From NCBI RefSeq assembly GCF_030013595.1, contig NZ_CP122768.1: a stretch of DNA of 64,000 nt; one strand, written 5' to 3'. The DNA comes from Escherichia coli. GTDB taxonomy: Bacteria; Pseudomonadota; Gammaproteobacteria; Enterobacterales; Enterobacteriaceae. Made by a program: the position numbers and the translations under genes. Positions 20,173 to 40,112 of the stretch are shown here, in pieces (within the stretch, counting starts at the first letter, position 1; each line of letters opens with the position of its first letter). A model generated the notes under the pieces. That model was not told the origin of the DNA, did no database searches, and saw nothing but the letters and a program-made list of their open reading frames with translations.

Positions 20173-20450
20173 GAAAAGGCATTTACACAGAATCCTAAAC
20201 AGGTTCCGACATTCTTCACTCATACTAAACATCTTGTCACTTGACGCAGGGCTGAAAGTTCTACAACAACGGTATACCAATATGATATTGGTTTACTAAA
20301 TTTTTTGGGGATCCATCAGGGAATTTCTCCCTATATTTCCAGACTCCTGTTATCATTTAACCCATTACTGATCCGCTGCCACATATATACCTGCGGCGAG
20401 CGATAACCTAGAGCTATGCTGCATTGTAATGTTCGATCGCTACTGCATGG

Positions 20451-21151
20451 TTATGCAATGCCGTCATTAACATCTGGCTTGGGCATGAACACGATGTAGT
20501 CACGCTTTATCGTTTTCACGAAGCTCTCTGCTATTTTGTTACTCTCCGGACTCCGCACCGCCGTGTTCTTCGATTCAAGTCCCAACATCCGAGCGGACAG
20601 GCGTGTTTCATTAGCCCGGTAGCATGAACCATTATCTGTCAGCCACTCCACTGGAGACGCCGGAAGCTCGTTGCCGAAGCGGCGTTCCACCGCTCCTGGC
20701 ATGACGTCCTGTGCTGTTTCACTGTTGAAGCCGCCGGTAGTGACCGCCCAGTGCATCACCCCGGCAACAAGGGCGCGTGCGCTATCCACTTTTTGCACGT
20801 CCATATTCAACGGCTTCTTTAATGAGTTCATTTTCCATCGTTTTGTTCCGAGCAGGCGCTGGCGTTCTTTAATCTGCCTTATGGCAGCAGCAAGTTCAGA
20901 GGCAGGAACGATCTGTTCCCCAGCAGTCACCGCAGTAAGACTTCCCTCCTGGTATTGCTTGCGCCAGAGAAGTAACTGGCTGCTACACCATGTTGCCGGG
21001 CAACGAGGGAGACCATCATTCCTGGTTCAAAGCTCTTCTGAACATTAGCGATCTTTTCCTGTGCAGTACGCCGTCTGAGTTTCTCCGGTCCTGAGGCATC
21101 AATCATCTGTTTTCCAATGACCAGTCTAAAAACTAATATTAAGATTATCAC
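20451..21151 (-). mobile_element. IS2 (IS3 family) remnant with internal deletion
   Basis: InsC-like [30 protein letters not shown] and InsD-like C-terminus [16 protein letters not shown]...[22 protein letters not shown]; incomplete. Confidence 0.75.
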
Positions 21152-21326
21152 TTAAATAAGTGATACTGGTTGTCTGGAGATTCAGGGGGCCAGCCTATCC
21201 GGGAAAGTTCACTCACTTTGAATGAAGTAAATATTAAGTATCACATTTTGTGATGTAGCCATTATTTTTATAAAAAATCACCTGATAGGATTTATCATAA
21301 GTTAATGATAAGCAGAGTATTGATAG

Positions 21327-21767
21327 ATGAGCAAGAAGAAGTTTTCTGTTGAGAATGAAGATCTCGCTACTGTTCGTACATCACTTCTTAATTCCAACCT
21401 TGTCCGGAAGTTGATCATGGAAATGTCTGATGAAGACTTCAATCAAGTTAAGGATAACCTTGAAAAGGCCATTGAGCAGCGTAATGAGTTGAAGGATTCT
21501 TTGGCAATTATCAAAAAGTACATGGATGACGCAGGTGTAACGGCGGAAGATGTGTATCGTGAATTTGGCAAAAAATTACAGACGGGCAGAAAAAACGATT
21601 CAGGAGAGTCTAATAAGTACAGGTATGAGTATAACGGTCAAATAATGTACTGGAGTGGACAAGGTCGTCGGCCTTCTGTTATTGCAGAAGCAATAAAAGC
21701 CGGAGGTTCTCTTGATGATTTTCTTATATCTCAGGGCACATCATCATCTTGTTCTGATTATGAGTGA
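21327..21767 (+). CDS. H-NS family nucleoid-associated protein (146 aa)
   Basis: C-terminal H-NS DNA-binding signature YWSGQGRRPSVIAEAIKAGGSLDDFLI (H-NS: TWTGQGRTPAVIKKAM...SLDDFLI); divergent coiled-coil N-terminus. Confidence 0.8.
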   Translation: MSKKKFSVENEDLATVRTSLLNSNLVRKLIMEMSDEDFNQVKDNLEKAIEQRNELKDSLAIIKKYMDDAGVTAEDVYREFGKKLQTGRKNDSGESNKYRYEYNGQIMYWSGQGRRPSVIAEAIKAGGSLDDFLISQGTSSSCSDYE

Positions 21768-22034
21768 TACATCTAATCGGTTGAATGTTGCTGTAATGCT
21801 CGCTTTTGATGCTTATATGGCAGCGTTACCGTTTATTGTTTTAGTTACAAATTGGTCGTCATGGACATAACCTGAAATTATAACTATCATCGGGTCTTTC
21901 AAGTTGCTTATGCATATAACGCCAGGGAGGAAAACGAGAGTTAAAAAATTGAACTGTTCTCATAGAGACTGTAATTTAAATTGTGTAATTGCCGGTTTTG
22001 ATATGTTCGCTCCAACAACGTAGACAAGTAGATT

Positions 22035-22226
22035 GTGGACGAAAAGACGCTTAAAGTCCTTGCGGCTGAGCTGGCTAAAGGCCTCAAAACCGAGGCCGAC
22101 CTCAATCAGTTTTCCCGTATGCTGACGAAATTAACTGTCGTAACGGCGCTTAATGCAGAACTCGGTAACGGCTGCAGATGTTCCTGCTCTGGTTGTGGTC
22201 GGCCAGCAACAGGAATCCGGAGTTGA
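22035..22226 (+). pseudogene. IS1414/IS256-family transposase N-terminal fragment
   Basis: MDEKTLKVLAAELAKGLKTEADLNQFSRMLTKLTV matches the N-terminus of IS1414-like transposases; truncated by the IS21-family fragment. Confidence 0.6.
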
Positions 22227-22824
22227 ACACGACTTTCCCGTTGTTATTCTTCAGCACCGCAGCCTTCTGGTTATCAACCAGCACCGTTTTCACACAACCA
22301 CCGAAGTAGCGGAAGGCACGAACCAGTGATTCGTAGGTATGCTCAGCATCCTGTTTTGGTGCTGCGAAGACATGGAAGCGGCGGGAGAACCCCAGCGTAT
22401 TAACCGCAAAGTTAACTTTGCACCGTTGCCCGGCAACCTCCACCTCAACTTCGCCCCAGTCGTGCTGGAGCTGGTATCCAGGCTGAGTTTCGAAGCGAAC
22501 TGTTCTTTTTGACGGACGCATTTTACGTTTGGGCTGGATGTAGTAACGCAGCATGGAACGTCCGCCCGTATAACCCATTGCCTTAATCTCCGCGAAGATA
22601 ACCTCACTATTCCAGACATTCTCTGCCAGGCGCATGTCGATGTAATCCATAAACGGTTTCAGCTTAACCATTTTGTGGCGGGTCTTTCTGGCTGGCGGTT
22701 CAGGGTATTTGAGGTAGCGTCTGACCGTCCGTTCAGAGCAACCAATCTGAGTCGCAATATCGACAATGTACGCGCCCTGCTGGCGCATTTGCTTTATCAT
22801 GTAAAAGTCCTCTCTGCTCAGCAT
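22150..22824 (-). pseudogene. IS21-family IstA transposase, N-terminal fragment (C-terminus missing)
   Basis: HTH N-terminus and IstA-like core (VRFETQPGYQLQHDWGE...FRYFGGCVKTVLVDNQKAAV); C-terminus truncated and no istB follows. Confidence 0.75.
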
Positions 22825-23977
22825 GTTGATGTCCTTTCTGGTGTGAGAACCTTAAGGAAACAACATGTTGGGTGGAGCGGACAATCCAAATGGTGACCGT
22901 CTTATTATCGCTGGCGCTGACACCTGAGCGATCACCTTTAATATGGCAGCACTTACACTGAATTATTTACATATTCGTTATAACGAACTTCTGTACATAA
23001 TTATGAAACAGATTTGTATTTACATAAAACATGGATGTTTTTAATTTAGGTTTATTACTATTATTATACTCACTCCCTTTTTGATATAATCTCTATTGTT
23101 ATTTATTTCCTGTCTTCACTCACTCTCAATCTTTACATATTCCATTAGTATTACTCTTGTTATCGTATTCACTCCATCCCCCAATCATAATTACTGTAAC
23201 TCATATGATATTCAGATAAGCTATTCTCTACTACGCTATTGCTAATATCCATCTGTTATCAGTCTTCACTGAAACAGCAATTGATCTTAATCTTATTTAT
23301 CATGAACTGTATTTACTTAACGATAATTGTTTATCTGAAGTGTTTTAACTATTCTGGTGAACATCAATTCTTTTGTCATCACTGATTAACTGAATGTTTA
23401 CTCTTTGATACAGTATCCATGATTCCGTCATGTTTAACAGAGCTGGATAAACAACAGAATCAACAGAGTGAATTCCTGATTATGTTTGTTTCGGGTTGTA
23501 TTGTTTAAGATGCAGGGTAAAAATCATGCCAGTGGTATTTTTTACTCTGGTAATGTGTGCGGTTAACGTTCATGTCCTTAAGAACAGATTGGATGAGGGC
23601 GTATAAGTTTATTGCGTTGGCTTTGTACACGTTTTTTTTAGAACCACTGAGAGCAAGTTTGTAGTTTATGATGTGATTGGCCGTAATGCGCCAGTTAGTG
23701 GGGTTTTAGCGCGTATTTTACAGTATTTCGTGATGTTTTATTGAGTCTGTATTTTATTCGCTCCTCGTTTATCTCATTTCTTTAGTCAATGCCATCAGAT
23801 AACCTATTCCTTTCAGCACAACGCTACGCGTCGTTAATAACCCGTCGTATCCATTCTGCTACAGCATGCCTGATAAATACCGTCTGTAAGTTATTACCGT
23901 TTTAGATCTGATTATGAGCGAAAGCATTAATTCGCTCACAGAGCTTAAAACGTCATTAACTTTCAGGAGTCATCAAC

Positions 23978-24544
23978 ATGCCTAAATCTTACACACCAAA
24001 CTGGTTTTTTACCGCCTTACTTGACCATCACATCAATCAAATGATGGCACGCTATTCCTGCCTGCGGGCCTTACGGATGGATTTCTTCTACAGGAAAGAT
24101 ACGCCTGATTTCTTACAACCTGATCACCGCTGGCTTGAATTGCAGTTGCGTATGCTGCTGGAGCAGGTGGAACAATTTGAAAATATCGTTGGCTTCTTCT
24201 GGGTGATTGAATGGACGGCTGATCATGGTTTTCATGCGCATGCGGTTTTCTGGATCGATCGTCAGAGAGTTAAAAAAATATATCCCTTTGCGGAGCGGAT
24301 TACGGAATGCTGGCGGTCTATTACGCATAACAGCGGTTCGGTGCACCGTTGTACATATCAGCCGCATTATACATACAACATCAACATCCCCGTGCGTCAT
24401 AACGATCCCGGGAGCATCGATAATATTCGCGGTGTCCTGCATTATCTGGCGAAAGAAGAACAAAAAGACGGGCTGTGTGCCTACGGTTGCAATGAAGTTC
24501 CTGAACGGCCTGCTGCAGGGCGTCCTCGTAAGCCTCACTTCTGA
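23978..24544 (+). CDS. YagK/YfjJ-like (inovirus Gp2-type) protein (188 aa)
   Basis: ORF track; good RBS (CAGGAG); family from recall, one of several paralogs here. Confidence 0.5.
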   Translation: MPKSYTPNWFFTALLDHHINQMMARYSCLRALRMDFFYRKDTPDFLQPDHRWLELQLRMLLEQVEQFENIVGFFWVIEWTADHGFHAHAVFWIDRQRVKKIYPFAERITECWRSITHNSGSVHRCTYQPHYTYNINIPVRHNDPGSIDNIRGVLHYLAKEEQKDGLCAYGCNEVPERPAAGRPRKPHF

Positions 24545-24760
24545 AGCTTAAGGCCTGAGCCTCCGCTCCTGGAAACACTCCGTCGGTAAAACCTTACCGC
24601 CTTGATTAATGATGTGAACCGAAGTCAACGGAGATCATTCACCCTGAACCTGCATCCAGTGTTCTTTCCCTTATCTTCCCGTTCTGCTTCAGTTTTTCAC
24701 TTATTCCATCAATCTCATCCGCAAGCCATAACACGTCAGTTCATTCACGGGTAGGACGCA

Positions 24761-25366
24761 TTGTGGGTTGCGCATAACGGAACATATCTTATGAATGCTA
24801 TTCCTTATTTCGACTATAGCCTGGCCCCCTTCTGGCCGTCTTATCAGAGCAAAGTTATCGGCGTCCTTGAGCGTGCGCTGCGTGAGCAGTCCGGCTCCCG
24901 GATACGGCGGATCCTGCTTCGTCTGCCGTGTGAATATGACAATACCTTCAACAGCAGAACGACCTGGTTTGGTATGGATTTTATCGAAACCGTCAGTGCG
25001 CTGATGAATGCAACACCCGGACGTGACCTCTGCTGGCTCCTGACCCGTCATCCTGAAAAGCCGGAATACCACGTGGTGCTGTGTGTCAGACAGGAGTATT
25101 TCGATGGCCCTGAACTGGACCGGCTGATTCTGGATGCCTGGAGCAACGTACTGGGTTTCGCGTCACCAGGTGAAGCAAAGCCGTACCAGAAGCAGATCAC
25201 CCGGGATGTGGTATTGGACAGTCGTTCACCGGACTGTGAAGACATCCTCAAAGAGTTGATATGGGCGTTCAGTGATTTCGCCCGCGATCGTCGTGGTGTG
25301 TGCGATCCGGAAGCCCGTTGCCTCGCCGGTAATCCCGGCTATCCCGGATCTGCAGGACCGTTCTGA
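24761..25366 (+). CDS. YagK/YfjJ-like paralog (201 aa; true start possibly ATG at 24791)
   Basis: ORF track; weak similarity in architecture to the 23978 gene. Confidence 0.4.
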   Translation: MWVAHNGTYLMNAIPYFDYSLAPFWPSYQSKVIGVLERALREQSGSRIRRILLRLPCEYDNTFNSRTTWFGMDFIETVSALMNATPGRDLCWLLTRHPEKPEYHVVLCVRQEYFDGPELDRLILDAWSNVLGFASPGEAKPYQKQITRDVVLDSRSPDCEDILKELIWAFSDFARDRRGVCDPEARCLAGNPGYPGSAGPF

Positions 25367-25434
25367 AAGCTCGGTTCAGCATCTTTCCCTGCATTCGCAC
25401 AAACTTCATAAATCTCACAAAGGACATTCTGACC

Positions 25435-25668
25435 ATGTTGACCACAACAAGCCACGACAGCGTGTTACTGCGTGCCGACGATCCCCTGATCGACATGAAC
25501 TACATCACCAGTTTCACCGGCATGACCGATAAATGGTTTTACAAGTTGATCAGTGAAGGCCATTTCCCGAAACCCATCAAGCTGGGCCGCAGCAGCCGCT
25601 GGTACAAAAGTGAAGTGGAGCAGTGGATGCAGCAGCGAATCGAGGAGTCACGAGGAGCAGCAGCATGA
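25435..25668 (+). CDS. alpA: AlpA-family phage/island transcriptional regulator
   Basis: Signature HFPKPIKLGRSSRWYKSEVEQWM typical of AlpA-family proteins. Confidence 0.8.
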   Translation: MLTTTSHDSVLLRADDPLIDMNYITSFTGMTDKWFYKLISEGHFPKPIKLGRSSRWYKSEVEQWMQQRIEESRGAAA

Positions 25669-25924
25669 AACGTGTTGTAATGCCGGTACGCTGGCAATGT
25701 ACAAAATGCTGGCGCTGGTATTGTGGAACCCGGCCCTGCCCCTGGTGCTGGCGACACTCCCGCTTATCTTTCCGCTGACACCCTCCAGTCAGCCAACTGT
25801 TTGTACCTCTTTCCTGACTGATTCGTCATTCCATTCTTATTGATTATAACTGGCATTACACCGGTGCTGGCGTGCTTTCCTGCGTATCTGCACCGGTTTA
25901 ACAAAATTCAACGGGGATAAAATA

Positions 25925-26473
25925 ATGCAGATAACCGAAGCATTACTTGCAGAGCCGGGAGACATCCGGCGTTTTGTTCAGCAGGCGGTGGACCACTGGC
26001 CACATCTGTTGGCATTTCGTTTCACTCTCCGTTCGGCAGAAGGAAGCATCAACGGGCAACAGATTCAGGTATTCTGTACTTCTTTTTACCGACAGGTGCA
26101 CGAACGTATTACTGAGAGTAATCACATGCTCAGTCCATCATCGCCGGTGGTATTACGCTGGTTGCGGGAACAACATGGAGGGGCAACAATACGATGCCTG
26201 TTGCTGCTCAGCCAGGATCTTTTCTGCCATCCGCGAGCCAGTGCCACGGTTGATGAAGCATGTTCACAACTGGTAGATTTACTGCAACAGACCTGGCAGG
26301 TGATAAGCGCTGGCGGACAATGTCGGGTGGAAAAGCGTTTTCAGGTCGCCCGGGGTGATACATCTGGCCAGTATGTTGCGTTAAAAACAGTCGCATTGTC
26401 TCTGGGGTTACCGGTTGTGACCGCCATTACCCATCGTCCGGTACAGCGCTGTACACTGATTACAGCTCAGTGA
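25925..26473 (+). CDS. Hypothetical protein (182 aa), possibly another YagK/YfjJ-like paralog
   Basis: ORF track only. Confidence 0.4.
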   Translation: MQITEALLAEPGDIRRFVQQAVDHWPHLLAFRFTLRSAEGSINGQQIQVFCTSFYRQVHERITESNHMLSPSSPVVLRWLREQHGGATIRCLLLLSQDLFCHPRASATVDEACSQLVDLLQQTWQVISAGGQCRVEKRFQVARGDTSGQYVALKTVALSLGLPVVTAITHRPVQRCTLITAQ

Positions 26474-26491
26474 ATCAGCGCAGTTGTGTAG

Positions 26492-26836
26492 TCAACGAGG
26501 TTTTCTGGCTTTTTGTCGGTCATTCAGCACCATTAGCCGGGTCTCTGCCTCTTTCTGTTCCTGTGGAGTCACTTTCCCGCACGGCTGCCCCTTCAGGTCG
26601 TAACGGGCGCCGCCAGCCATTAACGCACGGTAATAGCGCGGAGACTGCACATAAGACGCTACTGCCGCGCGTAATGCACCTGCGCCAAACGCCAGTTCTC
26701 TGATGGCGATATCCTGTATCAGGTCGTTAGGTATCTCAACTTTAAGCGGTTGGATTTTTTCCCGGTTGAATAACTCAGGCCAGTGTTCCACAAGACGATT
26801 AATACGCTTACGGTTTTTACGCTGGCGTTTTGTCAT
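26492..26836 (-). CDS. FinO/ProQ-domain RNA-binding protein (114 aa)
   Basis: Aligns to the ProQ N-terminal FinO domain: LVEHWPELF...PLKVEI and LRAAVASYVQSPRYYRALMAGGARYDLKGQPCGKV versus ProQ [35 protein letters not shown]. Confidence 0.8.
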   Translation of the reverse strand: MTKRQRKNRKRINRLVEHWPELFNREKIQPLKVEIPNDLIQDIAIRELAFGAGALRAAVASYVQSPRYYRALMAGGARYDLKGQPCGKVTPQEQKEAETRLMVLNDRQKARKPR

Positions 26837-27851
26837 ATGCCGCCACGGTGTTTTTTCAGCAGAGCAGGGCTCTGTTTATCGTTCAACTGTGGTATCCGTT
26901 CCCTGGCCTTCACGTTGTGTGCAGTGTTCGTTTTATCCTGCAGCGGCGTTGCCGGTGATTTACTGAAAATGCCCTGTGGTTTACGGTTAATGGTCAGCGT
27001 TACCATCAGTATTGTTACCTCATGCTGTCAATGGAAGTAGTACCCCATCCAGAGCCTTGGCGACCCCGGGGCTGAAAACGAAACAATAACCCGCGCGCAG
27101 TGCGAGGAGCCCGGGCGTGAAGCAATCAGCAGGTAATATTAATGACAAGACCAGCAGGTTCTTTAGACAAACGAACAATATCAGCAAATACGACAGTTCC
27201 CGGAGAGGTAAAAAGTTTTTTACTTGCACAATTCTTAAAAAAATGGAGATGAACAAAAATGGGGCGACATACCTGGAAGGTTTCACCTCAGACAGAGAGC
27301 CAGGAACAAAAACAGTGTGCCGGAGCAAAGGACCGGGAGCTTACCGGCAATTCAACAGCGGCAGAATAATCTTTATGCCATGTATACTCCGGATGTTCAC
27401 TTATCAGCGGTCGTGGCTGAACATGGTTGTGCAGGTGAATATAATCCTGGTGAAAATGCCTTCTGACCGTTAAGCAGGTTATTGTGAACAGGAAAAAGAG
27501 AAGAACACGACCACGCCGTACGATGCCGCAACACTTTGAGTGGCACGTATGCTGGTGATATCGATAATGTTCTGTCATGGGGAGCGCAGCCCGTCCCCGT
27601 ACAACATGAACTGACCGACGTGTTTTGATAATCCGGAAATTGCGGATAAAACCTGCACAGAGTTGTTTCATCTGGTGGATATGACGGTGACGGATGGCGA
27701 TGAAATCATGCAGTATCGCCGTTAAAAACAGTTGTTCAGTCTTTGTCTTTTATGTTACCCGTTGTCAACGCTAGGGTTATTGGCAAAATCCGTTGGTAAT
27801 GGACGAGTGAATCATCTGTGCTTCCGTTGATTTTTATGGACTGATAAAGTT

Positions 27852-28511
27852 TTGTCAGATGAATTTTTATACGGAATTCTTTTCAGTATGCGTACACGAA
27901 TTGATTATCTGGCGGATAAATACTGTTTTACAGAACGGAACGAATCGCCCCGTCTTCGCCTGCAGTGGCAGGATGTTCTGGAGGAGTGCCGGCAGACAGA
28001 GGCCGGGCCAGAAGAACGGTTGCGTATTGCACTGCTGAATGTGGATTACGTCACCAGTTTTGAACTGCCTTTTCGCTTGCTGCTTACCCGGACACCGCAA
28101 TTGATTGCCGCGCTGCGTGAAGAATGGGGCATCAGCCAGAAAAATGTGGTGTTTAACGATAAACGGTTTGGCTGCGTGTACAGCCTGAAGGCCAGCCTTT
28201 CTGGTGTGCCGGATACATTCCGGTATCATCTGTCTCACCGTATTCGTCGCGTGGTTGGGAATGAAAACACATCATCGCCATATCAGCAGGTTGCCCGGAA
28301 AGTGAAAGCGCCCCGTGAACGGCTGAAGTATGCACTGGAGGCGGGTTTACTGGTGACTGCACTGGACGGCCTGTTCTGGTTTGGCAGTCAGCGTATTGCG
28401 GCTGATGTTCTGAGGCGGAGAAAGGCCGGAATGCCGGTGGTGACCACGACCGTGGAGGTGCACGATAACCTGACAGGAACAACCCGCAAAGTACCGGCAT
28501 ACCATCTCTGA
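27852..28511 (+). CDS. Hypothetical protein (219 aa)
   Basis: ORF track; no recognised family. Confidence 0.45.
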   Translation: MSDEFLYGILFSMRTRIDYLADKYCFTERNESPRLRLQWQDVLEECRQTEAGPEERLRIALLNVDYVTSFELPFRLLLTRTPQLIAALREEWGISQKNVVFNDKRFGCVYSLKASLSGVPDTFRYHLSHRIRRVVGNENTSSPYQQVARKVKAPRERLKYALEAGLLVTALDGLFWFGSQRIAADVLRRRKAGMPVVTTTVEVHDNLTGTTRKVPAYHL

Positions 28512-30305: not shown

Positions 30306-31021
30306 ATGAAAATACGCAGTATCAACCACACAGAGGATTATGTAATGACCAAAAATCATTCATTTTTAGAACAACAGATAGCTACATTTGGTGCAGCACT
30401 AAATGGGGGAAATCAACCGCAATCTGAGTACATAGAAGCCTTCTCAAAATCATTTAAAGGACTAGAAACACAAATTAATATTTGGGAAACCTTTATTGTC
30501 AATAGCACAAATGTTAATCAAGACGACGCAATGCTTTTTCCTTAACCATATCAGAGCAATATCTACACTACACCCATAAATCAACCGAAATAGAACAGCT
30601 CCGCTACTTCTACATAGCACAAAAAATTGCAGACTTGTTCTGGCTGAACAACGTTGCACATAGAGGTAAAAACTCTGAAGGCTACCCAGGTCATTTTGGT
30701 TGTCGTGTAAGGCAAAGAAACAAAAAACTCGAAATTTTCTGGGTTTACAACGAGTTTAAACCTAAAAAGAATTCTGACAAATACCAGGTGATCAGCCATT
30801 ACCTCCCCCGTGAGGGCAATTATCGCTATTCACAAAGCACCTTTACCCGAGCACAAGATTGGGAAAAATCGGTGATTACTGCTGTTGAAGATGCTTTCTC
30901 AATAATCCGCAGAGCCAACTCAAATCTAATGCGGGTTAGACAACTGTGCCGTTGGAATGACACCAATCTATTCAAAATGACAGGCGATATCGACGATTTT
31001 AAGATGGATAATCCTTTATAG
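30306..31021 (+). pseudogene. Hypothetical gene in two frames (30306..30545 and 30635..31021); possibly disrupted
   Basis: Two adjacent same-strand track ORFs in different frames; no family recognised. Confidence 0.3.
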
Positions 31022-31078: not shown

Positions 31079-32128
31079 CTATTTATCTTTTTTTAGTATG
31101 GCCTTGAGGGCTGCGATATTGGCCCGTGCGCCTTCGGCTTCTTTTAAACGACGGCGCTGCTGGGCAAAGCGGTCAAACTCCAATTTCGCTTTGTCATCAG
31201 CGTCTTTCTTGGAGATTTTTCCTGCACCGTTTAATACATCTCTATCGTTAAAACTCAAGAACTGGTCAAGCTTATCGGCCCAGTCCTGTAAAAATACCTG
31301 CTTGCGACGCAGTGCTTGGTCTTCAGCAAAGTCGAGCCACATATTGACGATGCGATTAAGCTCTTTGATTTCGTCTTCACGCAAATAGTTCTTGGCAACA
31401 GTAACGTCTGTCTTGCGCACTTCATCGCCTTTATAGCTGGTTAAGCCCATATCCGGCTTACTGGCATCCACACGGCTGGCGATAAGCTCAGCAGCCGTCA
31501 TATGCGTACAAGCATAATGCAGCTTATTCTGAATGGTTTGGAAGAAGCGGTTGGTCTCTTGGTTAGATGGCTCGTAATCAGCAGCCATGGTAAAGATTTC
31601 TTTGACTCGCAGATAAACGCGACGCTCACTAGCTCGGATATCACGAATGCGTTCCAGCATTTCATCAAAGTAATCTGGCACAGCAGAATGGCCAATGGGC
31701 GGATTTTTCAGGCGCTCGTCATCCATGACGAATCCTTTGATTAGGTATTCTTGCAACATTCTGGTTGCCCATTGGCGGAACTGGGTGCCACGTGTTGAGC
31801 GAACTCGGTATCCTACTGCAAGAATAACCGGAAGACTGTAGTGACGAATGCTTCGCTTTACTTCTCTGCCACCTTCCAGTTGAACTTGTAAGTAATCCTT
31901 ACAAGTTGAAATTTGCTCAAGCTCTTCTTCAGAATAGACAGCTTTTACGTGTTGGGTGATTGCTTGAGAGCTAACTTGATAAAGCTCTGCCATTGCAGCC
32001 TGAGAAAGCCACAAGGTGTCAGACTCAAAACGACACTCAACGCGGGTTTGACCATCAGCACTGGTGAAAAGAACAAACTCACCTTGAGGAGCTTGTGGGA
32101 TGTTATCGGCCATTGAATCAACCTTCAT
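31079..32128 (-). CDS. rhuM: RhuM-family protein (349 aa)
   Basis: Characteristic RhuM N-terminus (FVLFTSADGQTRVECRFESDTLWLSQAAMAELYQVS); directly downstream of the hsd operon. Confidence 0.85.
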   Translation of the reverse strand: MKVDSMADNIPQAPQGEFVLFTSADGQTRVECRFESDTLWLSQAAMAELYQVSSQAITQHVKAVYSEEELEQISTCKDYLQVQLEGGREVKRSIRHYSLPVILAVGYRVRSTRGTQFRQWATRMLQEYLIKGFVMDDERLKNPPIGHSAVPDYFDEMLERIRDIRASERRVYLRVKEIFTMAADYEPSNQETNRFFQTIQNKLHYACTHMTAAELIASRVDASKPDMGLTSYKGDEVRKTDVTVAKNYLREDEIKELNRIVNMWLDFAEDQALRRKQVFLQDWADKLDQFLSFNDRDVLNGAGKISKKDADDKAKLEFDRFAQQRRRLKEAEGARANIAALKAILKKDK

Positions 32129-32148
32129 ATGTTACTGATAATGGGCTA

Positions 32149-32991
32149 TTATTTATCCATAGCGGTTACAGAGTTAGCGAGCCTTTTTTCTTTGCCAAAC
32201 GGGGTCGTATAGAAGCGTTGTTCAATGCCATAAAGCAGTAACTTCAACTCATCGTCATTAGATATTTCAAACTTCTGATTTTCTTTATCGAATTTCAGCT
32301 TCTGTTCACCGCAGTAACCGTCGATATAATCAAGCATGTTAGCTTTATCGTCAGCAGACATCGCATCAAGTGTTGCCATAGCAAGGCCAATACGTTTTCT
32401 ATTAGGTTTTGAGACGCTATCTACGTTGTAGTCATTACCCAACTCTATAAACTGTGCATCTAAAAACTGCTCAACTTCTTCTTTTGTTGCTTCCTTGTAC
32501 AACTCATCGATACCTTTAAAAATGCTCGAGATCGTTGCCAGATTTTTGAATATCAAGGTATCGGCCACTTTGAAGTACACTGCATCAGGTAAGGCGTTTA
32601 TTACTAAACGTGTTTGGCTCTTCTCAATTTCTGCGGCTTCACCAAAAACAAGCGTTTTGCGTTTTACGAATAGGCTTGGAGTGATTTTTTGAAAGTAAAA
32701 ATCATTACCTTGAATTGCAAATAAGTAGGCGATCTTGGCGAAGTTATCTTTGGTTAAGTCATCGTAGTCTTTTGAATCATAGTCTTTTTTTAGCAGTTCA
32801 ATACAAAACTCTTTTTGACTAAAGTCTTCAATTTTAAACCATGAGTCTTCGTCAAGGTTATGGTCTGGATTGTATGGAATACAGGCATTTAAGTCGATTG
32901 TGACGGTATCAAAAAGAGATTGATCAGAAACCAATTTGAAAATGCGTTTTTTTGCTCTAGTTTTTATATGTGCCAGTACATGGTCCATCAT
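32149..32991 (-). CDS. Soluble 280-aa protein translationally coupled to the upstream membrane protein (KwaB-like position; defence candidate)
   Basis: ORF track; start ATG overlaps the stop of the membrane gene (TAATG); no family recognised by eye. Confidence 0.5.
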   Translation of the reverse strand: MMDHVLAHIKTRAKKRIFKLVSDQSLFDTVTIDLNACIPYNPDHNLDEDSWFKIEDFSQKEFCIELLKKDYDSKDYDDLTKDNFAKIAYLFAIQGNDFYFQKITPSLFVKRKTLVFGEAAEIEKSQTRLVINALPDAVYFKVADTLIFKNLATISSIFKGIDELYKEATKEEVEQFLDAQFIELGNDYNVDSVSKPNRKRIGLAMATLDAMSADDKANMLDYIDGYCGEQKLKFDKENQKFEISNDDELKLLLYGIEQRFYTTPFGKEKRLANSVTAMDK

Positions 32992-33545
32992 TATCCTCGC
33001 TCGATAAATGTGTAATTATTGATTCGATAAGCCAATGATATTTCGATGTCATCTGGCTTCTTGTAGCGCTCTCGGCTAATAAGGAAAATGGCCGTTCCGT
33101 TTTTGGTTGTAATGTTATAAAACTCATAACCAAACAGTAAAAACAATGGGTTAAAGTAGAGTGCTTGCGATAAGAGAGTAAAAACAAACAAAACGCCATA
33201 AACAAACCACAATGTCTCCCAGTTACCAATGCTCAACGCCACGAAAAAGTAACCCAAATAACTTGGTAGGAAGCTGTTATTGGCATGCTCAATACTCGCT
33301 ACTTCACCCGCCTTAAAATCGTCTTTACCCAAATACTTACTCAGCCAAATACTCAATCCAGTCGATAAAACAGGGATAAGAAAATAGAGTAAATATGATA
33401 CTGCGTTCGGAAGTGCTGCTATCCAATCGAAGCAAGCGAAACCACCAAAGAAATATCCGAGTGAGTACCCTTTTTGTACCGCAAAGATAATCACTAGTAG
33501 TGATGTTGCATTGAACGTAAGTAAAACCCGAAACGCAGTATTCAT
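32991..33545 (-). CDS. Small 4-TM membrane protein translationally coupled to hsdR (KwaA-like architecture; defence candidate)
   Basis: About four hydrophobic helices (aa 7-25, 29-46, 49-70, 93-125); start ATG overlaps the hsdR stop. Confidence 0.55.
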   Translation of the reverse strand: MNTAFRVLLTFNATSLLVIIFAVQKGYSLGYFFGGFACFDWIAALPNAVSYLLYFLIPVLSTGLSIWLSKYLGKDDFKAGEVASIEHANNSFLPSYLGYFFVALSIGNWETLWFVYGVLFVFTLLSQALYFNPLFLLFGYEFYNITTKNGTAIFLISRERYKKPDDIEISLAYRINNYTFIERG

Positions 33546-36500
33546 TATTTCACCGCCGCCTGTTCTGCACCTTGCTTCATCATGTCAAAAATCAACTCAA
33601 CATAACTTGCCATAACTTGTGGGTCTTTGAGTAGCGTTCGGGCTATATCACCTTCTTTCAGCAGAGCCTGCACAACGGCTTGCTTCACCGCTTGCGGCAA
33701 GTCGCCTTTGAGGGCAATCGACTTGTCGTGCTTTTCTATCTGCTCAACCACAATTGGATTTTGGGTGACACGCGTAATAGTACCGTTGGCAAAGTTTCGG
33801 CGACCGGGTTCGTCGCCGACATCGCCAAACAGTTCGTTTAGGCGGCGAATGATATCGGCAAGAAATGCCTGTTCACGATCCGCAGGGTCGTTATAGTTGG
33901 GGCGGATAGGTTCAAGTACCTGATTAAACGCTTCTGGAAGCGGCTCTTTGTCGTATTTGATTTTGAATTTTTCTAGTACCAGTGCACTGAGATCGATGTT
34001 TTCTGGTGTTACCCCTTTCAATCGACGTGATAGCAAATGAGCAAACGCGGCAAAGTTTTCCAGTTCAGGATCACCAAACTCAATCAATTGCGCCATATAG
34101 CTATAGTGCTTCACAAATCGAGCTAAATCTGACTTAAAACGCATTAGTGCTTCGCGCTGCTTGGTGAAATCACTGCGCTGAGATTCTGCGTAGTTCGCCG
34201 CTTTTTCATCACCCGCAAGGTGCGCTTTGTTGTATTGCTGATCCCAATGGTTTGCAGCATCAACCAGCTCTTTGAGCTTAACGTTGAACACATCGGTAGG
34301 GCGTTGTGTGGCAGCTAGCAGTTTCTTGTGCGCGTGTGACTTTTTGTCAGGTGATTGGCCGAGAATCGATTTACCACGCGCTTGCTTAAACAACTCTAAA
34401 TCTTGATGGTTGTATATGTTCTGTTCATCCAAAATATCTTTGATGTCATAGATGACGTTCACATCTTGCACTTCATTAAGCTGCGCGCCTTTGTCGTACT
34501 TTTTGAACGCATTGAGAATGGTTTGTGGATCGTTAACAAAATCAATCACGAAGGTTGTGTCTTTGCCTGGATAGGTGCGGTTTAGGCGAGACAGCGTTTG
34601 CACCGCTTCTACATCGGATATTTTCTTATCCAAATACATGGCAACCAGTTTTGGTTGATTAAAGCCCGTTTGGAACTTGTTGGCGACTAACATGACGCGA
34701 TATTCGGTATTCTCAAACTCATGGCGCAGGTCAGCCCCGTGCGTGTCTGGGTTTAAGTTGTACTCGGTGTACTCTTTATCGAAATCAATTTCTAGCGGGT
34801 CTTGGCTGTCTTCATCACCCAAATCTTTGCCGGGGACTTTGCCCGAGAAGGCAACCAAGGCTTGGATACCTTCAATACCATGCTTTTTAATGTATTTATC
34901 AAAAGCAAGCTTGTATTTCACCGCCTGTGGCCTGCCCGATGTGACCACCATGGCTTTGGCTTCACCTTCCAGTAGGTGAGCGATATTGGCCTTGAAGTGC
35001 TTAATAATAAATTCGACTTTTTGGCTGACCGTGGTTGGGTGCAGTGACATCCAGCGCGCCAACGCGCGGCGAGCTTGTTTGCTGTCTACGCGCTTCTCAT
35101 CCAGATTGTTCTCACCAATTTTGTAGGCTGTATCGTAGTGGGTGTAATTCTCCAGCACATCAAGAATAAAACCCTCATCAATGGCCTGACGTTGGGTGTA
35201 GAGGTGGAACGATTCAGGAAGATTGTCATCTGACACTGGTTGGTTAGGGTCTTTCGGGCGGCCAAACAACATCTTGGTGCTGTGCTTGGGTGTTGCCGTA
35301 AAAGCAAAGTGCGAAACGTTCTTGGGCATGGCGCGCGCTTCTTGCACCTTAGTAAGAATGTCCTCAATGCTCATTTGCTCCAACTCTTGAGGGCTAAGGT
35401 TTAGAGTAAGCGCTGCGCGTAACCCTTTGGCTGTAGAGCCTGTTTGCGAGGTGTGTGCTTCATCGATGATCACCGCAAAGTTACTTTGTGCCAAAGATTG
35501 ATTGGTCAGAATCGCTTCTAACGCATATGGGAAGGTTTGAATCGTCACTACAATGATCGGCGTGCCAGTCAATAGCGCTTCAGTCAGCTGTTTTGATTTC
35601 GACTCGCTGCTCTTTTCGCGATCAATCGCCTTAATCACCCCATATTGATGATCCAGCTGTTGCACCGCATCTTGCAACTGCGAATCCAGCACGGTGCGGT
35701 CGGTCACAATGATCACTGATTTAAAGACCGCTTTACCATCGGTGCTGCGTAAACGAATCAAATCATGGGCCGTCCAGGCTATGGTAGAGGTTTTTCCCGA
35801 ACCGGCGCTGTGCTCACAAAGATACTGCATGCCTGCGCCGTTCTGGCGGGCATCATCAATCATCTTGTTGACTGCGGCTAACTGATGATAACGCGGAAAA
35901 ATCTGTGTTTCCTTACGCTCAACCTTGCCATTGCTATCGGCAACCACTTTGGTTTCGACATACACAAAGCTGTAGAAAATGCGTAGCCAATTATCTTTTT
36001 GGGCAATTTCTTGCCAAAAATAGCTGACCGGATACTCTCCATCTTCACCCGGCAAGTTGATGTGTACAGGCAAATCAGAGGTAGAACCATCATGGCCTTT
36101 ATTGAAGGGCAGAAAATAGGTATTTTCTCCCGCCAGTTTGGTCGCCATGGCGATTTCTGTATCAGACATGGCAAAATGTACCACTGCACCGCGTTTAAAG
36201 GTTAACAGCGGCTCTTTACGCTTGGTTTTTGGGTCAACGGGCAGACGATCCTCTTTGTACTGCGCAATCGCCGATTCTAGCGACTGGGTAAAATCGGTTT
36301 TTAGCTCGGCGGTGGCAACGGGTAGACCGTTGATAAAGAACACCAAGTCAATTTCCCACTCGCGAGTCGGGCAATATTTCAGTTGGCGCACCACGCGCAA
36401 AATGTTGTGCTCATAACGGGCTATACGCTCTTCATTGCGCGCATCTTCGGGTTTGCGTTGGCCCATGGCAATCGTGCCGCAACCTGCAATGGTAAAGCCT

Positions 36501-36781
36501 TTACGCAGCACATTAATGGTGCCACCTGTTTTACTGCCAGCTTTGTGGGAAGAGAGGGCTTTTTCCAAACGCTCCAACAGCACCTGCTCGGCATTCACAC
36601 CATGCAGTTTATTCAGTTTGTGCCAGGCATCTGGCTGGGTGGCCTTTACCCAATCCATGACATCTTGCGGGTAAAGGGCGCGTTGCTGGTCATAGTGGCA
36701 GGAATGGCCTTCTTTCCAGCCATTGTTCACCAACTGCTCGGTAATATATTGTTCAAAATGCACTTCATGATGTGCAGCCAT
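33545..36781 (-). CDS. hsdR: Type I restriction enzyme R subunit HsdR (1078 aa)
   Basis: SF2 helicase motifs (GSGKT Walker A, DEAH-like region); length and operon context. Confidence 0.95.
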   Translation of the reverse strand: MAAHHEVHFEQYITEQLVNNGWKEGHSCHYDQQRALYPQDVMDWVKATQPDAWHKLNKLHGVNAEQVLLERLEKALSSHKAGSKTGGTINVLRKGFTIAGCGTIAMGQRKPEDARNEERIARYEHNILRVVRQLKYCPTREWEIDLVFFINGLPVATAELKTDFTQSLESAIAQYKEDRLPVDPKTKRKEPLLTFKRGAVVHFAMSDTEIAMATKLAGENTYFLPFNKGHDGSTSDLPVHINLPGEDGEYPVSYFWQEIAQKDNWLRIFYSFVYVETKVVADSNGKVERKETQIFPRYHQLAAVNKMIDDARQNGAGMQYLCEHSAGSGKTSTIAWTAHDLIRLRSTDGKAVFKSVIIVTDRTVLDSQLQDAVQQLDHQYGVIKAIDREKSSESKSKQLTEALLTGTPIIVVTIQTFPYALEAILTNQSLAQSNFAVIIDEAHTSQTGSTAKGLRAALTLNLSPQELEQMSIEDILTKVQEARAMPKNVSHFAFTATPKHSTKMLFGRPKDPNQPVSDDNLPESFHLYTQRQAIDEGFILDVLENYTHYDTAYKIGENNLDEKRVDSKQARRALARWMSLHPTTVSQKVEFIIKHFKANIAHLLEGEAKAMVVTSGRPQAVKYKLAFDKYIKKHGIEGIQALVAFSGKVPGKDLGDEDSQDPLEIDFDKEYTEYNLNPDTHGADLRHEFENTEYRVMLVANKFQTGFNQPKLVAMYLDKKISDVEAVQTLSRLNRTYPGKDTTFVIDFVNDPQTILNAFKKYDKGAQLNEVQDVNVIYDIKDILDEQNIYNHQDLELFKQARGKSILGQSPDKKSHAHKKLLAATQRPTDVFNVKLKELVDAANHWDQQYNKAHLAGDEKAANYAESQRSDFTKQREALMRFKSDLARFVKHYSYMAQLIEFGDPELENFAAFAHLLSRRLKGVTPENIDLSALVLEKFKIKYDKEPLPEAFNQVLEPIRPNYNDPADREQAFLADIIRRLNELFGDVGDEPGRRNFANGTITRVTQNPIVVEQIEKHDKSIALKGDLPQAVKQAVVQALLKEGDIARTLLKDPQVMASYVELIFDMMKQGAEQAAVK

Positions 36782-38067
36782 TACACCGCCTCCCTGACGT
36801 CTATTTTTCCTGTGACAGCCGCGTTGATCAGCGATGTGCGGTGTTCTTTTAGAAGATCAATCGATTTATCAGTCTCTTGAATCAGTAAATCAATGTTTAT
36901 CGTTGCTGCACTCAAGTAATTCGTTATTGTCTTTTGCTCATCAATTGGTGGGATAGCAATACTTGTATTAGCTAGTGAAGGAATGCTCAGGTTGTAGTTA
37001 CCTACCGATGTTCTTGACTGAAATGTTAATGCTTGACGAACAGATAGTGAGTTCATCGCTTCCACTAAGAAGCTAGTATCCACTCCTTGCTTTGGTGTTA
37101 ACTTTATTAGGTACGACGCAAATAAATACTGCCCATTTGAATCAAAAAGCGCGCTTTGGCCGACCAGATTAGGGTTACCGTTAGTTCTGATGACTAAAAT
37201 GTCGCCTCTTGATAAAAGATAAGTTAAAGCATCAACATCACTGATATTTGCATATTTGAGATCTTCAAAATCAACATTGGTACTCTTGATGTTTGGTATC
37301 CTGAGAACAGGATAGCCAACATCAGACTGGTTACAGTCTTGAGAGGTTCCATACATAAAGTTGGAGCAAATATGCTTTATCTTTTTGACTTCCCAATGCT
37401 TCGGCACTTGCCCAATCCACTCGATGCCAGAGTCCTGCATCTCCACATTGGGATAGAGCCCCTTTGTGACCACATGGCTGATCAGTGCTTGGCGTTTTTC
37501 TTTGAGCAGCTTAATAAAGGTCTGCTTTTCCTCGATCAGACTGTCGATGCGCTGGGTTTCGCGATCAAGGAATGTGCTAACCTGCTTCTGTAATGAAATA
37601 TCAATCAGTGGAACAGGTATTTCTAAAAGATCACCAGCTGTTAGGTTCTGACGAACTCCTCCACCCAGTTTGTTATAAATATTGGTTAGGTATAGAGCAA
37701 AAAAGTACCAGTAATAGAACCTTGGGTAGATGCTATTTGAACTCGCTGAAACACGGATGTATGCAGGGCTCATTATTCCTCGTTCATGCACAATCCCCAC
37801 TCGGCTAGTCTTTATATTTTCAAGATCTATGAGCTTAAAAACTAAGTCATCTTTTTCAAAAATCTGATAAACAGAGTAATCAGAAGATTGAAGTCCTTGT
37901 AAATCGTCTAACGAGCGGTTTATGACACCTTTCATTGTTAGTGCAAGACGATTAGATTCTTTCATTCCTTGATTGATTTCTTTGCTACTCGTAAATAAAC
38001 GTTTAGCTGGTACTGAGTTCCATTTCGAGTCAGATACGAAAGCATCTACTATGTTGCCAGCATTCAT
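36781..38067 (-). CDS. hsdS: Type I restriction-modification specificity subunit HsdS (428 aa)
   Basis: Two-TRD architecture with conserved central and C-terminal repeats; coupled between hsdM and hsdR. Confidence 0.9.
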   Translation of the reverse strand: MNAGNIVDAFVSDSKWNSVPAKRLFTSSKEINQGMKESNRLALTMKGVINRSLDDLQGLQSSDYSVYQIFEKDDLVFKLIDLENIKTSRVGIVHERGIMSPAYIRVSASSNSIYPRFYYWYFFALYLTNIYNKLGGGVRQNLTAGDLLEIPVPLIDISLQKQVSTFLDRETQRIDSLIEEKQTFIKLLKEKRQALISHVVTKGLYPNVEMQDSGIEWIGQVPKHWEVKKIKHICSNFMYGTSQDCNQSDVGYPVLRIPNIKSTNVDFEDLKYANISDVDALTYLLSRGDILVIRTNGNPNLVGQSALFDSNGQYLFASYLIKLTPKQGVDTSFLVEAMNSLSVRQALTFQSRTSVGNYNLSIPSLANTSIAIPPIDEQKTITNYLSAATINIDLLIQETDKSIDLLKEHRTSLINAAVTGKIDVREAV

Positions 38068-40046: not shown

Positions 40047-40112
40047 TGATACTACCTAAATGAAGTTAAATCGTTAAAAAATCAGTGTATTGTTTGGTTA
40101 TTATTTTGCGTT

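What the first reader, a model, noticed from the sequence alone, without database searches (positions are those of the whole stretch)
23978..26473. Cluster of YagK/YfjJ-like paralogs interleaved with AlpA, plus a frameshifted copy 6 kb upstream
Three same-strand ORFs (23978, 24761, 25925) and the split gene at 17629-18359 appear to belong to one family, with an AlpA regulator between them. Multiple tandem paralogs of a replication-initiator-like family are unusual and may mark nested satellite or island integrations.
Basis: inference. Interest (0 to 1): 0.35.

Follow-up and report, generated by a model that had tools for sequence, protein, structure and literature searches.

The report
Conserved array of Rep-like island paralogs
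Four very divergent copies of a rolling-circle-replication-initiator-like gene (YagK/YfjJ, "inovirus Gp2-like") sit with an AlpA regulator in an E. coli genomic island; this is an old, conserved gene array found in about one in six E. coli genomes, in which only two copies keep the catalytic residues, and it is not a sign of nested insertions.

Summary
D (17629-18359) is a canonical YagK/YfjJ gene. It is broken by a 1-nt deletion in an A7 run that no other complete E. coli genome carries. A (23978-24544), B (best start 24791, to 25366) and C (25925-26473) are not detectably similar to one another. Each matches a canonical YagK/YfjJ profile: hhalign 91.9, 96.9 and 96.7 % probability, against at most 4.1 % for reversed-profile controls. 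AlpA (25435-25668) lies between B and C.

"Nested integrations" is not supported. An uninterrupted E. coli relative has one co-linear array: D, a YfjI-type helicase, A, B, AlpA, C, then a convergent ProQ/FinO gene. In the window, a restriction-nuclease gene, IS fragments and an H-NS gene have replaced the helicase. Distant loci keep A- or D-type, B-type and C-type genes in the same order. All genes are under purifying selection (dN/dS 0.04-0.42).

Only A and D keep the HUH histidines and the Tyr-x-x-Lys motif. B has one His and Asp in place of Tyr; C has neither.

My inference is an AlpA-linked replication or nicking module of the island, with B and C as non-catalytic partners. The function itself has never been tested. 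The finding is ordinary to modestly interesting.

The parts
17629..18359 (+). D: canonical YagK/YfjJ (inovirus Gp2-like, HUH Rep-like) gene. It is inactivated here by a 1-nt deletion in a poly-A run (A6 at 17842-17847). The intact form is 243 aa with HUH = H-Y-H and motif III = S-Y-L-V-K.
   Evidence: Pfam PF11726: 1.5e-33 for the intact allele and 1.2e-6 / 4e-20 for the two window fragments. Alignment to strain 2009C-3133. About 30 % identical to K-12 YfjJ and YagK. The deletion is private to the window.
17566..17633 (+). About 65-nt 5' leader of D. It has a second copy in the A-B spacer, contains TCAACGGAGATC (which includes the likely ribosome-binding GGAG) and a short palindrome, and ends in D's ATG.
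   Evidence: blastn 75 % identity, E 4e-10. Conserved in L015 and L016. Motif count.
23978..24544 (+). A: 188-aa A-type paralog (Rep ORF2/G2P-like). HUH = H86-A-H88 and Y156-L-A-K159 are retained, so it is predicted to be the only intact catalytic copy in this window.
   Evidence: Pfam PF23343 4e-5 and PF11726 7.5e-4, both below threshold. Family members carry both domains and are named inovirus-type Gp2. hhalign to D-type 91.9 % over 173 columns. His/His/Tyr/Lys are conserved in 77, 77, 70 and 79 of 83 family members. dN/dS 0.10-0.18.
24586..24648 (+). Copy of the D leader inside the A-B intergenic spacer. The position equivalent to D's ATG is CTG here, and the copy lies 143 nt upstream of B's start.
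24791..25366 (+). B: 191-aa B-type paralog, annotated 'hypothetical' with no Pfam match. It has a Rep-like fold, but the HUH motif is reduced to E-Y-H and motif III reads S-D-F-A-R (Tyr replaced by an invariant Asp), so it is predicted to be non-catalytic.
25435..25668 (+). AlpA-family winged-helix regulator/excisionase-like gene
   Evidence: PF05930 2e-10. PHROG family 'excisionase and transcriptional regulator' 6.4e-10. 58-66 % identical to the AlpA genes of the distant arrays. dN/dS 0.12.
25925..26473 (+). C: 182-aa C-type paralog (Pfam PF27752 'UCP030791'). The N-terminal two thirds align with YagK/YfjJ. Neither the HUH histidines nor the motif III Tyr is conserved across the subfamily, so it is predicted to be non-catalytic.
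   Evidence: Precomputed PF27752. hhalign to D-type 96.7 %, E 3.6e-10. Canonical protein L017_g1 against the C profile 93.7 %. C-type L007_C against PF11726 9.3e-5 and against its D-type neighbour by blastp 5.7e-10. Motifs. dN/dS about 0.3. The AlphaFold2 model is unusable at pLDDT 49.
26492..26836 (-). ProQ/FinO-domain RNA-chaperone gene, convergent with C and 18 nt from it. It sits next to C in every E. coli copy examined.
   Evidence: PF04352 9.4e-23. Synteny.
18687..22824 (.). Insertion/replacement segment between D and A: an Mrr_cat restriction endonuclease gene (18687-19565), IS256-family and other transposase fragments, an H-NS gene (21327-21767) and a truncated IS21 istA (22150-22824, minus strand). 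It occupies the place of the YfjI/DUF3987 helicase gene of uninterrupted relatives.
   Evidence: Pfam Mrr_cat 1.3e-5. RefSeq (PGAP) annotation of near-identical strains. Uninterrupted array in L015 and L016. YfjI = DUF3987 1.6e-74 and PHROG family 'DNA helicase' 6.4e-43.

Best explanation
The region is the conserved 'AlpA plus Rep-like' core module of a CP4-57-related integrative genomic island of E. coli. The island lies next to yicL, on the selC side.

The module is one ancient same-strand array of four very divergent paralogs of the YagK/YfjJ (inovirus gpII-like, HUH rolling-circle initiator) superfamily. In its undisturbed form it reads D, YfjI-type (DUF3987) helicase, A, B, AlpA, C, followed by a convergent ProQ/FinO gene.

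D-type and A-type proteins keep the metal-binding His-x-His and the nucleophilic Tyr-x-x-Lys. B-type and C-type proteins have lost them but are still under purifying selection.

Most likely mechanism (inferred, not shown). AlpA-family regulators switch on excision, as AlpA does for CP4-57. The catalytic HUH paralog then nicks a specific site on the excised circle and, together with the YfjI helicase, starts replication or single-strand production. B and C would act as non-catalytic origin-binding or regulatory partners.

In this particular window the module is degraded: D is frameshifted and the helicase gene has been replaced by IS-borne cargo. Only A remains as a potentially active nickase.
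For: - Superfamily membership of all four: (A-D 91.9 %, B-D 96.9 %, C-D 96.7 %; reversed-profile controls at most 4.1 %).
- Rep-like fold of B.
- Catalytic motifs present in A and D, absent in B and C.
- Uninterrupted array with the helicase.
- Conserved order in distant loci. Orthology pairs A 59 %, B 32 %, C 26 %, AlpA 66 % identity.
- Purifying selection on all genes.
- Prevalence: 934 and 315 of 5426 E. coli genomes.
- The divergent junction with the GTPase/antirestriction/CbtA core block is also seen in Klebsiella and other loci, so this is one island architecture, not two islands.
- Pseudomonas islands share an intY + alpA + Gp2-like + RadC core that the authors consider core element functions (PMC12595487).
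- AlpA activating intA and CP4-57 excision, and HUH chemistry (His-x-His metal site, Tyr nucleophile), are established knowledge recalled from memory (Kirby, Trempy & Gottesman 1994; Chandler et al. 2013).
Against: - No member of the YagK/YfjJ family has a demonstrated activity. Published sources call the function unknown (PMC6174562), and no paper found here reports one.
- No nick site, origin or hairpin could be identified. Repeat, promoter and Rfam scans of 22850-27900 were at background.
- The structure of C could not be modelled, so its fold rests on sequence profiles only.
- A-type genes also occur without B or C next to defence cargo, so the partnership of A with B and C is not obligatory.
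- The loss of Tyr in B and C is read from alignments of proteins with about 20 % identity.
Confidence: 0.6

Rival explanations
1. Nested or tandem integrations: each Rep-like gene is the remnant of a separate satellite or island that inserted into or next to the previous one.
For: IS256, IS21 and other transposase fragments and foreign cargo lie between D and A. The island is mosaic: gene A is identical between the window and L015 while B has dS 0.31. E. coli genomes carry a median of two such modules each.
Against: No integrase, attachment repeat or tRNA fragment lies between the paralogs. The paralogs are distinct subfamilies, not recent copies. Their order is conserved across distant elements, and they are contiguous in relatives without IS elements.
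Confidence: 0.05
2. Mobilisation rather than replication: the catalytic paralog is a Rep-like relaxase that nicks an oriT on the excised island so that a helper conjugative plasmid can transfer it. B and C would be relaxosome accessory proteins.
For: The chemistry is the same HUH chemistry as in relaxases. Rep-related non-canonical relaxases are known in integrative mobilisable elements (own knowledge, Guedon et al. 2017). The same island carries a MobI(A/C) gene. The module also occurs on large Klebsiella plasmids.
Against: The adjacent conserved partner is a P4-alpha-type helicase (DUF3987), which fits replication better than transfer. No coupling-protein or type IV secretion genes accompany the array. 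MobI works with the IncC plasmid's own relaxase and lies 4 kb away among cargo. No oriT-like inverted repeat was found.
Confidence: 0.2
3. The paralogs are no longer nucleases. They are DNA-binding regulators or interference factors, for example decoys that bind the origins of incoming filamentous phages or plasmids, and they were co-opted as part of the island's defence load.
For: B and C lack the catalytic residues but are under purifying selection. The arrays sit directly upstream of defence cargo in several loci: Gabija-like, type I R-M, Kiwa, CHAT.
Against: A- and D-types keep the full catalytic set with high conservation. The genes belong to the conserved backbone next to AlpA and the helicase, not to the variable cargo. 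None was tested against defence-system models here, and no phenotype is reported.
Confidence: 0.1
4. B and C are unrelated small ORFs and their similarity to YagK/YfjJ is a chance profile match.
For: There are no direct Pfam hits for B or C, and pairwise comparisons among A, B and C are not significant.
Against: Independent lines converge. A B ortholog passes the Pfam threshold. hhalign gives 96.7-96.9 % against at most 4.1 % for reversed controls. A single canonical protein hits all four profiles. All motifs are co-linear in one MAFFT alignment. The fold of B matches replication initiators. RefSeq (PGAP) annotation itself names C-type proteins 'inovirus-type Gp2'.
Confidence: 0.03

Closest known systems
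E. coli K-12 YfjJ (CP4-57) and YagK (CP4-6); Pfam PF11726 YagK_YfjJ_C (formerly DUF3296 / Inovirus_Gp2)
   Same: D is the direct counterpart: 29-30 % identity over the full length, with the same H-Y-H and Y-x-x-K motifs and the G-x-G-x-R-N-F-G-C-S tail. The context is also the same, next to alpA and a YfjI/DUF3987 gene (alpA-yfjI-yfjJ in CP4-57).
   Different: The two K-12 regions examined each show a single canonical copy. Here there are three further subfamilies (A, B, C), two of them without catalytic residues. The array is divergent from the GTPase...CbtA block rather than co-directional with it. Neither YfjJ nor YagK has a known function.
Filamentous-phage gpII and Rep ORF2/G2P (Pfam PF23343), microvirus gpA, parvovirus NS1/Rep nickase domains (HUH rolling-circle initiators)
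   Same: A and D give weak to moderate PF23343 hits. They carry an HUH plus a single Tyr. The model of B superposes on NS1/Rep nickase domains and microvirus initiators.
   Different: These proteins are much shorter (180-240 aa against about 410 aa for gpII). No phage structural genes are present. No origin was identified. B and C lack the active site. Sequence identity to solved structures is about 10 %, and no solved relative is detectable by sequence.
Pseudomonas tmRNA-integrated defence islands I23/I44/I55 (PNAS 2025, PMC12595487)
   Same: The core gene set is intY + alpA + an inovirus Gp2-like protein + RadC, with variable defence cargo. The authors regard these as core element functions.
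   Different: These islands come from a different genus and integration site. The paper reports one Gp2-like gene per element, with no paralog array and no degenerate copies. They are transferred by jumbo-phage transduction, which has not been examined for the E. coli island.
P4-like satellites and PICIs (AlpA-controlled phage satellites)
   Same: An AlpA-family regulator, a tyrosine integrase at a tRNA-type site, and a P4-alpha-related helicase (YfjI/DUF3987) in undisturbed relatives.
   Different: No Psu, Sid, Delta or other capsid-redirecting or packaging genes are annotated anywhere in the island. P4 replicates by alpha primase-helicase and has no HUH Rep.

Membership tests
YagK/YfjJ (PF11726) / inovirus Gp2-like superfamily | Significant match to the curated family profile (Pfam gathering score 25.8 bits) | tested here: met
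   - D, intact allele: 116.6 bits. D, window fragments: 29.1 and 72.9 bits.
- A itself: 19.9 bits, below threshold, but its family members carry PF11726 and PF23343.
- B itself: no hit, but its ortholog P0308 scores 41.8 bits.
- C itself: no hit; its ortholog L007_C scores 22.9 bits, below threshold.
So the feature is met directly for D, and only by transitivity or profile-profile comparison for A, B and C.
YagK/YfjJ (PF11726) / inovirus Gp2-like superfamily | Profile-profile homology to canonical members, above controls | tested here: met
   hhalign against a five-sequence canonical profile: A 91.9 % (173 columns), B 96.9 % (109 columns), C 96.7 % (110 columns). Sixteen reversed-profile controls reach at most 4.1 %. 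The canonical Klebsiella protein L017_g1 hits all four profiles at 76-100 %.
HUH endonuclease (rolling-circle Rep) superfamily | HUH motif: two histidines separated by a hydrophobic residue on the central strand | tested here: not met
   Met by D (H-Y-H) and A (H-A-H; 77 of 83 family members). Not met by B (E/C/F-Y-H, first His lost in all B-type sequences) or C (T-I-R, E-C-G or L-H; not conserved). B and C are therefore homologs, but they cannot be filed as functional HUH nucleases.
HUH endonuclease (rolling-circle Rep) superfamily | Nucleophilic tyrosine in motif III (Y-x-x-K) | tested here: not met
   Met by D (S-Y-L-V-K) and A (H-Y-L-A-K; Tyr in 70 of 83 and Lys in 79 of 83). B has an invariant S-D-F/M-A/V-R. 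C has S, E or H at the aligned position. This rests on alignment at about 20 % identity.
HUH endonuclease (rolling-circle Rep) superfamily | Rep-type alpha/beta fold (antiparallel sheet flanked by helices) | tested here: inconclusive
C: pLDDT 49, with no meaningful matches.
HUH endonuclease (rolling-circle Rep) superfamily | Site-specific ssDNA nicking with a covalent 5'-phosphotyrosine intermediate at a cognate origin | not testable with these tools
   This needs biochemistry. No candidate origin or hairpin was found by the repeat, promoter or Rfam scans.
AlpA family (PF05930) | Match to the Phage_AlpA profile above the gathering score | tested here: met
   40.8 bits against a cutoff of 21, E 2e-10. 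PHROG family 'excisionase and transcriptional regulator'.
P4-like satellite / PICI | Capsid-size-redirecting or packaging genes (Psu/Sid/Delta, or PICI ppi/terS-type) | tested here: not met
   None are annotated in the island of near-identical strains over the whole window span. No profile search of every ORF was run.

The most novel reading that the evidence does not exclude
B-type and C-type proteins are dedicated pseudo-nuclease subunits that assemble with the one catalytic paralog (A- or D-type) into a hetero-oligomeric initiator, 'one live and two dead' HUH domains, that recognises the island's origin. Together with the neighbouring SF3-type YfjI helicase this would be a split, multi-subunit bacterial counterpart of the fused HUH-helicase Reps of ssDNA viruses. 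The shared 65-nt leader and the adjacent ProQ/FinO protein would provide post-transcriptional control.
Probability: 0.15. Interest if true: 0.55.

Novelty: new member of a known kind. Interest (0 to 1): 0.3.

Why it matters
YagK/YfjJ proteins belong to the uncharacterised 'y-ome' of E. coli, and they sit in the backbone of very common islands that carry defence systems, toxins and, as here, multidrug resistance.

Three points make the module experimentally tractable:
- A gene annotated 'hypothetical' (B) and the UCP030791 family (C) are degenerate members of the same Rep-like superfamily.
- The four types form a conserved array with AlpA and a helicase.
- Only two types keep the active site.

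Together these say which gene to test for nicking (A or D) and which to test as partners or regulators (B, C). The work also removes a false lead, because the paralog multiplicity does not mark nested integrations. For this strain it suggests that the island's replication module is decayed.

Tried and rejected
- Direct pairwise BLASTP and first-round hhalign among A, B and C gave nothing significant. The relationship appeared only after distant orthologs and canonical members were added.
- The exhaustive HMMER search with B found only 39 hits, two of them informative.
- The genome-contig scan with the C alignment returned only 2 loci, both close relatives. The back-translated patterns were too specific.
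- The AlphaFold2 model of C was too poor to use (pLDDT 49), and its Foldseek search gave no hit at or below 1e-3.
- The afdb50 fold library was unavailable.
- PDB sequence searches with C and D found no solved relative.
- Searches for an origin or nick site were at background: repeats, promoter/terminator consensus, Rfam on 14-31 kb with 0 hits, and comparison of the two AT-rich upstream regions.
- The TCAACGGRGAT motif and 65-nt leader were checked in distant loci and are not conserved there, so they are not a general feature of the array.
- The L010 177-aa ORF is not a detectable family member.
- Literature searches found no functional study of YagK/YfjJ or of such arrays.
Full report
**Where the window comes from.** It is an Escherichia coli chromosomal genomic island next to yicL/nlpA, on the selC side. 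Positions 7035-41675 are 99.98 % identical to strain 2009C-3133. The island has a minus-strand backbone block running from GTPase through DUF932, antirestriction, a RadC-like JAB protein and YeeU to CbtA. Diverging from it on the plus strand is the region of the finding. Cargo follows downstream: an ECs1377-family gene, MobI(A/C), RhuM, Kiwa, a type I R-M system, RelB, and a Tn21-like mercury-resistance and class 1 integron region.

**Checking the observation.** The ORFs are present as described.
- ORF D (17629-17940 plus 17865-18359) matches PF11726 YagK_YfjJ_C in both halves.
- D differs from the intact 243-aa gene of near-identical strains by a single missing A in an A7 run at 17842-17847.
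- No complete E. coli genome among the 1877 that carry this gene shares the deletion. It is therefore either a very recent mutation or a homopolymer sequencing error.
- ORF 25435-25668 is a bona fide AlpA-family gene (PF05930 2e-10).
- ORF A (23978-24544) gives only sub-threshold hits to PF23343 REP_ORF2-G2P (4e-5) and PF11726 (7.5e-4).
- ORFs B and C have no hit in the local Pfam or NCBIfam libraries.
- Direct pairwise comparison of A, B and C is not significant.

**Are they one family?** Yes, at superfamily level, with the canonical YagK/YfjJ type (D, K-12 YfjJ and YagK) as the hub.
- The family of A consists of proteins that carry PF11726 and/or PF23343 and are named inovirus-type Gp2 or rolling-circle replication-associated protein.
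- The family of B is almost confined to E. coli. Its only distant full-length relatives are P0308 and P0314 (34-35 % identity). P0308 passes the PF11726 gathering score (41.8 bits, 1.4e-10).
- C belongs to the newer Pfam family PF27752 'UCP030791'. A C-type ortholog (L007_C) scores 9.3e-5 on PF11726 over the whole profile. It also hits its canonical neighbour at blastp 5.7e-10.
- Profile-profile comparison against five canonical sequences gives A 91.9 % (E 6.9e-7, 173 columns), B 96.9 % (1.7e-10) and C 96.7 % (3.6e-10). Sixteen reversed-profile controls stay at or below 4.1 %.
- One canonical Klebsiella plasmid protein hits all four profiles.
- A single MAFFT alignment of 14 proteins is co-linear through motif I, the F-W-x-x-E strand, the HUH strand, the L-L-N-x-D turn and the A-W helix, and for A-, B- and D-types through motif III as well. 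The C-type C-terminal third is not conserved.
- C could not be modelled (pLDDT 49).

**Which copies keep the active site?**

| Type | HUH position | Motif III | Conservation |
|---|---|---|---|
| D | H-Y-H | Y-(L/M)-x-K | all five canonical sequences |
| A | H-A-H | Y-L-A-K | His/His/Tyr/Lys in 77, 77, 70, 79 of 83 |
| B | (E/C/F)-Y-H | S-D-(F/M)-x-R | Asp invariant in place of Tyr |
| C | T-I-R, E-C-G or L-H | S, E or H at the Tyr position | neither motif conserved |

B and C are nevertheless real genes. Their lengths and reading frames are kept in orthologs of 25-35 % identity. dN/dS among E. coli alleles is 0.04-0.24 for B and about 0.3 for C, against 0.10-0.18 for A, 0.12 for AlpA and 0.28-0.42 for D.

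**Nested integrations or one module?** One module.
- In E. coli CUVET18-1475 and E9 the genes form one same-strand array: a 376-aa hypothetical gene, D, YfjI family (DUF3987, 1.6e-74; PHROG family 'DNA helicase'), A, B, AlpA, C, then a convergent ProQ/FinO gene.
- In the window the helicase gene has been replaced by an Mrr-type nuclease gene, IS256/IS21/transposase fragments and an H-NS gene. This is why D lies about 6 kb upstream.
- Distant elements keep the order. L003 reads AlpA, A, (SH3 gene on the minus strand), B, C, DUF2913. L007 reads Zn-ribbon, AlpA, D-type, B, C. A Klebsiella IncFIB/HI1B plasmid reads D-type, AlpA, Zn-ribbon x2, C, DUF2913.
- In all three B-type lineages found, a C-type gene follows B. 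It is directly adjacent in L003 and L007, and in E. coli it is separated from B only by AlpA.
- The divergent junction with the GTPase block recurs in other genera.
- The A-B-AlpA-C-ProQ block is present at 80 % coverage or more in 934 of 5426 complete E. coli genomes, and the full D-to-C array in 315.
- No integrase, att repeat or tRNA relic lies between the paralogs.

**How it probably works.** What is shown: homology to HUH rolling-circle initiators, active-site retention in A and D only, linkage to AlpA and to a P4-alpha-type helicase, and purifying selection. The rest is inferred from established knowledge, recalled from memory: AlpA activates intA and CP4-57 excision (Kirby, Trempy & Gottesman 1994), and HUH enzymes nick ssDNA through a Tyr nucleophile at a His-x-His metal site (Chandler et al. 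2013). On that basis, after AlpA-dependent excision the catalytic paralog would nick the circular island and, with the YfjI helicase, start replication or single-strand production. B and C would act as non-catalytic DNA-binding or regulatory partners. I give the replication-module reading about 0.4-0.5. A Rep-like relaxase for mobilisation gets about 0.2, and co-opted regulators or interference factors about 0.1. No origin or nick site was found, and no family member has been characterised. In this window the module looks decayed: D is frameshifted and the helicase is lost. The related strain 2009C-3133 also has a truncated integrase at the far end of the island.

**Comparison with known systems.** D is the counterpart of K-12 YfjJ and YagK, and the alpA-yfjI-yfjJ arrangement of CP4-57 is the simplest version of the array. 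Pseudomonas tmRNA islands share an intY-alpA-Gp2-like-RadC core (PMC12595487). The region is not a P4-like satellite or a PICI, because no capsid-redirecting or packaging genes are annotated.

**What is new.** Three things are new here. B is recognised as a divergent family member. C is tied to the same superfamily; RefSeq (PGAP) annotation already names some C-type proteins 'inovirus-type Gp2'. The four types are shown to form a conserved array with two degenerate members. That is a modest advance on a known, uncharacterised family: new member of a known kind, interest about 0.3.

**Side observations.**
- A roughly 65-nt leader directly upstream of D (17566-17633) recurs in the A-B spacer (24586-24648). 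The two copies are 75 % identical (E 4e-10), far more similar than the proteins are. The exact 11-mer TCAACGGRGAT occurs three times in the window, each time 5' of a paralog. It is confined to the E. coli lineage.
- A ProQ/FinO-domain gene is always convergent with C in E. coli.
- A 48-aa hydrophobic ORF bracketed by a 12-nt inverted repeat lies between AlpA and C.

Noticed in passing
window 17566-17633 and 24586-24648: A roughly 65-nt segment immediately upstream of D, including D's start codon, is repeated in the A-B spacer at 75 % identity. This is far above the roughly 22 % protein identity of D and B. It contains a CGGTAA-N4-TTACCG palindrome and TCAACGGAGATC. The exact 11-mer TCAACGGRGAT occurs three times in 64 kb, each time 5' of a paralog (17610, 24625, 25908). 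It is conserved in E. coli relatives but absent from distant loci. It could be an operator, an RNA element or a relic of duplication.
   Followed up: partly
window 26492-26836 (-): A ProQ/FinO-domain RNA-chaperone gene is convergent with C, with 18 nt between the stop codons. It keeps this position in every E. coli copy examined and on an E. coli plasmid fragment. This suggests antisense or RNA-level control in the module.
   Followed up: partly
window 25676-25860: A 48-aa hydrophobic ORF (25697-25843, annotated in some strains) lies between AlpA and C. It is bracketed exactly by a 12-nt inverted repeat (25676-25687 / 25849-25860). The frame stays open in diverged copies but with many amino-acid changes. 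It could be a small membrane peptide, a type I toxin-like gene, or non-coding.
   Followed up: partly
window 17842-17847: The frameshift in D is a one-base contraction of an A7 run that none of 1877 E. coli genomes with this gene shares. A sequencing error in a homopolymer cannot be excluded.
   Followed up: yes
window ~30635-31021: A MobI(A/C) gene, the auxiliary transfer factor of IncA/C (IncC) plasmids, lies inside the chromosomal island. This hints that at least part of the island is, or once was, mobilisable by IncC helper plasmids, as SGI1/MGI-type islands are.
   Followed up: no
window ~31080-40050 (-): A defence cluster lies downstream of the module: RhuM, KwaB-like and KwaA (Kiwa), and a type I R-M system (R, S, M subunits), followed by a RelB/DinJ antitoxin gene.
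   Followed up: no
window 41675-56247: A Tn21-like region carries the mer operon, tni genes, IS1326 and a class 1 integron (dfrA1-aadA1-qacEdelta1-sul1). It is inverted relative to the otherwise near-identical strain 2009C-3133. G+C jumps to 0.6-0.68.
   Followed up: partly
window 14985-16115 (+): A 376-aa hypothetical protein with an N-terminal Cys-rich motif and no Pfam or PHROG hit precedes the array. A 418-aa protein with a visibly similar N-terminal motif precedes AlpA in the distant locus L003; the resemblance was seen by eye and not tested. It may be another conserved backbone gene of unknown function.
   Followed up: no
window 23978-25366 versus L015 6588-7973: Mosaic recombination inside the module. 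Gene A is identical between the window and strain CUVET18-1475, while the adjacent gene B differs with dS 0.31.
   Followed up: partly
L010 6924-9493; L008 6860-12516: In Klebsiella and Xenorhabdus, A-type genes occur without B or C, directly upstream of defence cargo: an OLD-TOPRIM ATPase plus UvrD-like helicase (Gabija-like), and DUF6361 plus a helicase.
   Followed up: no
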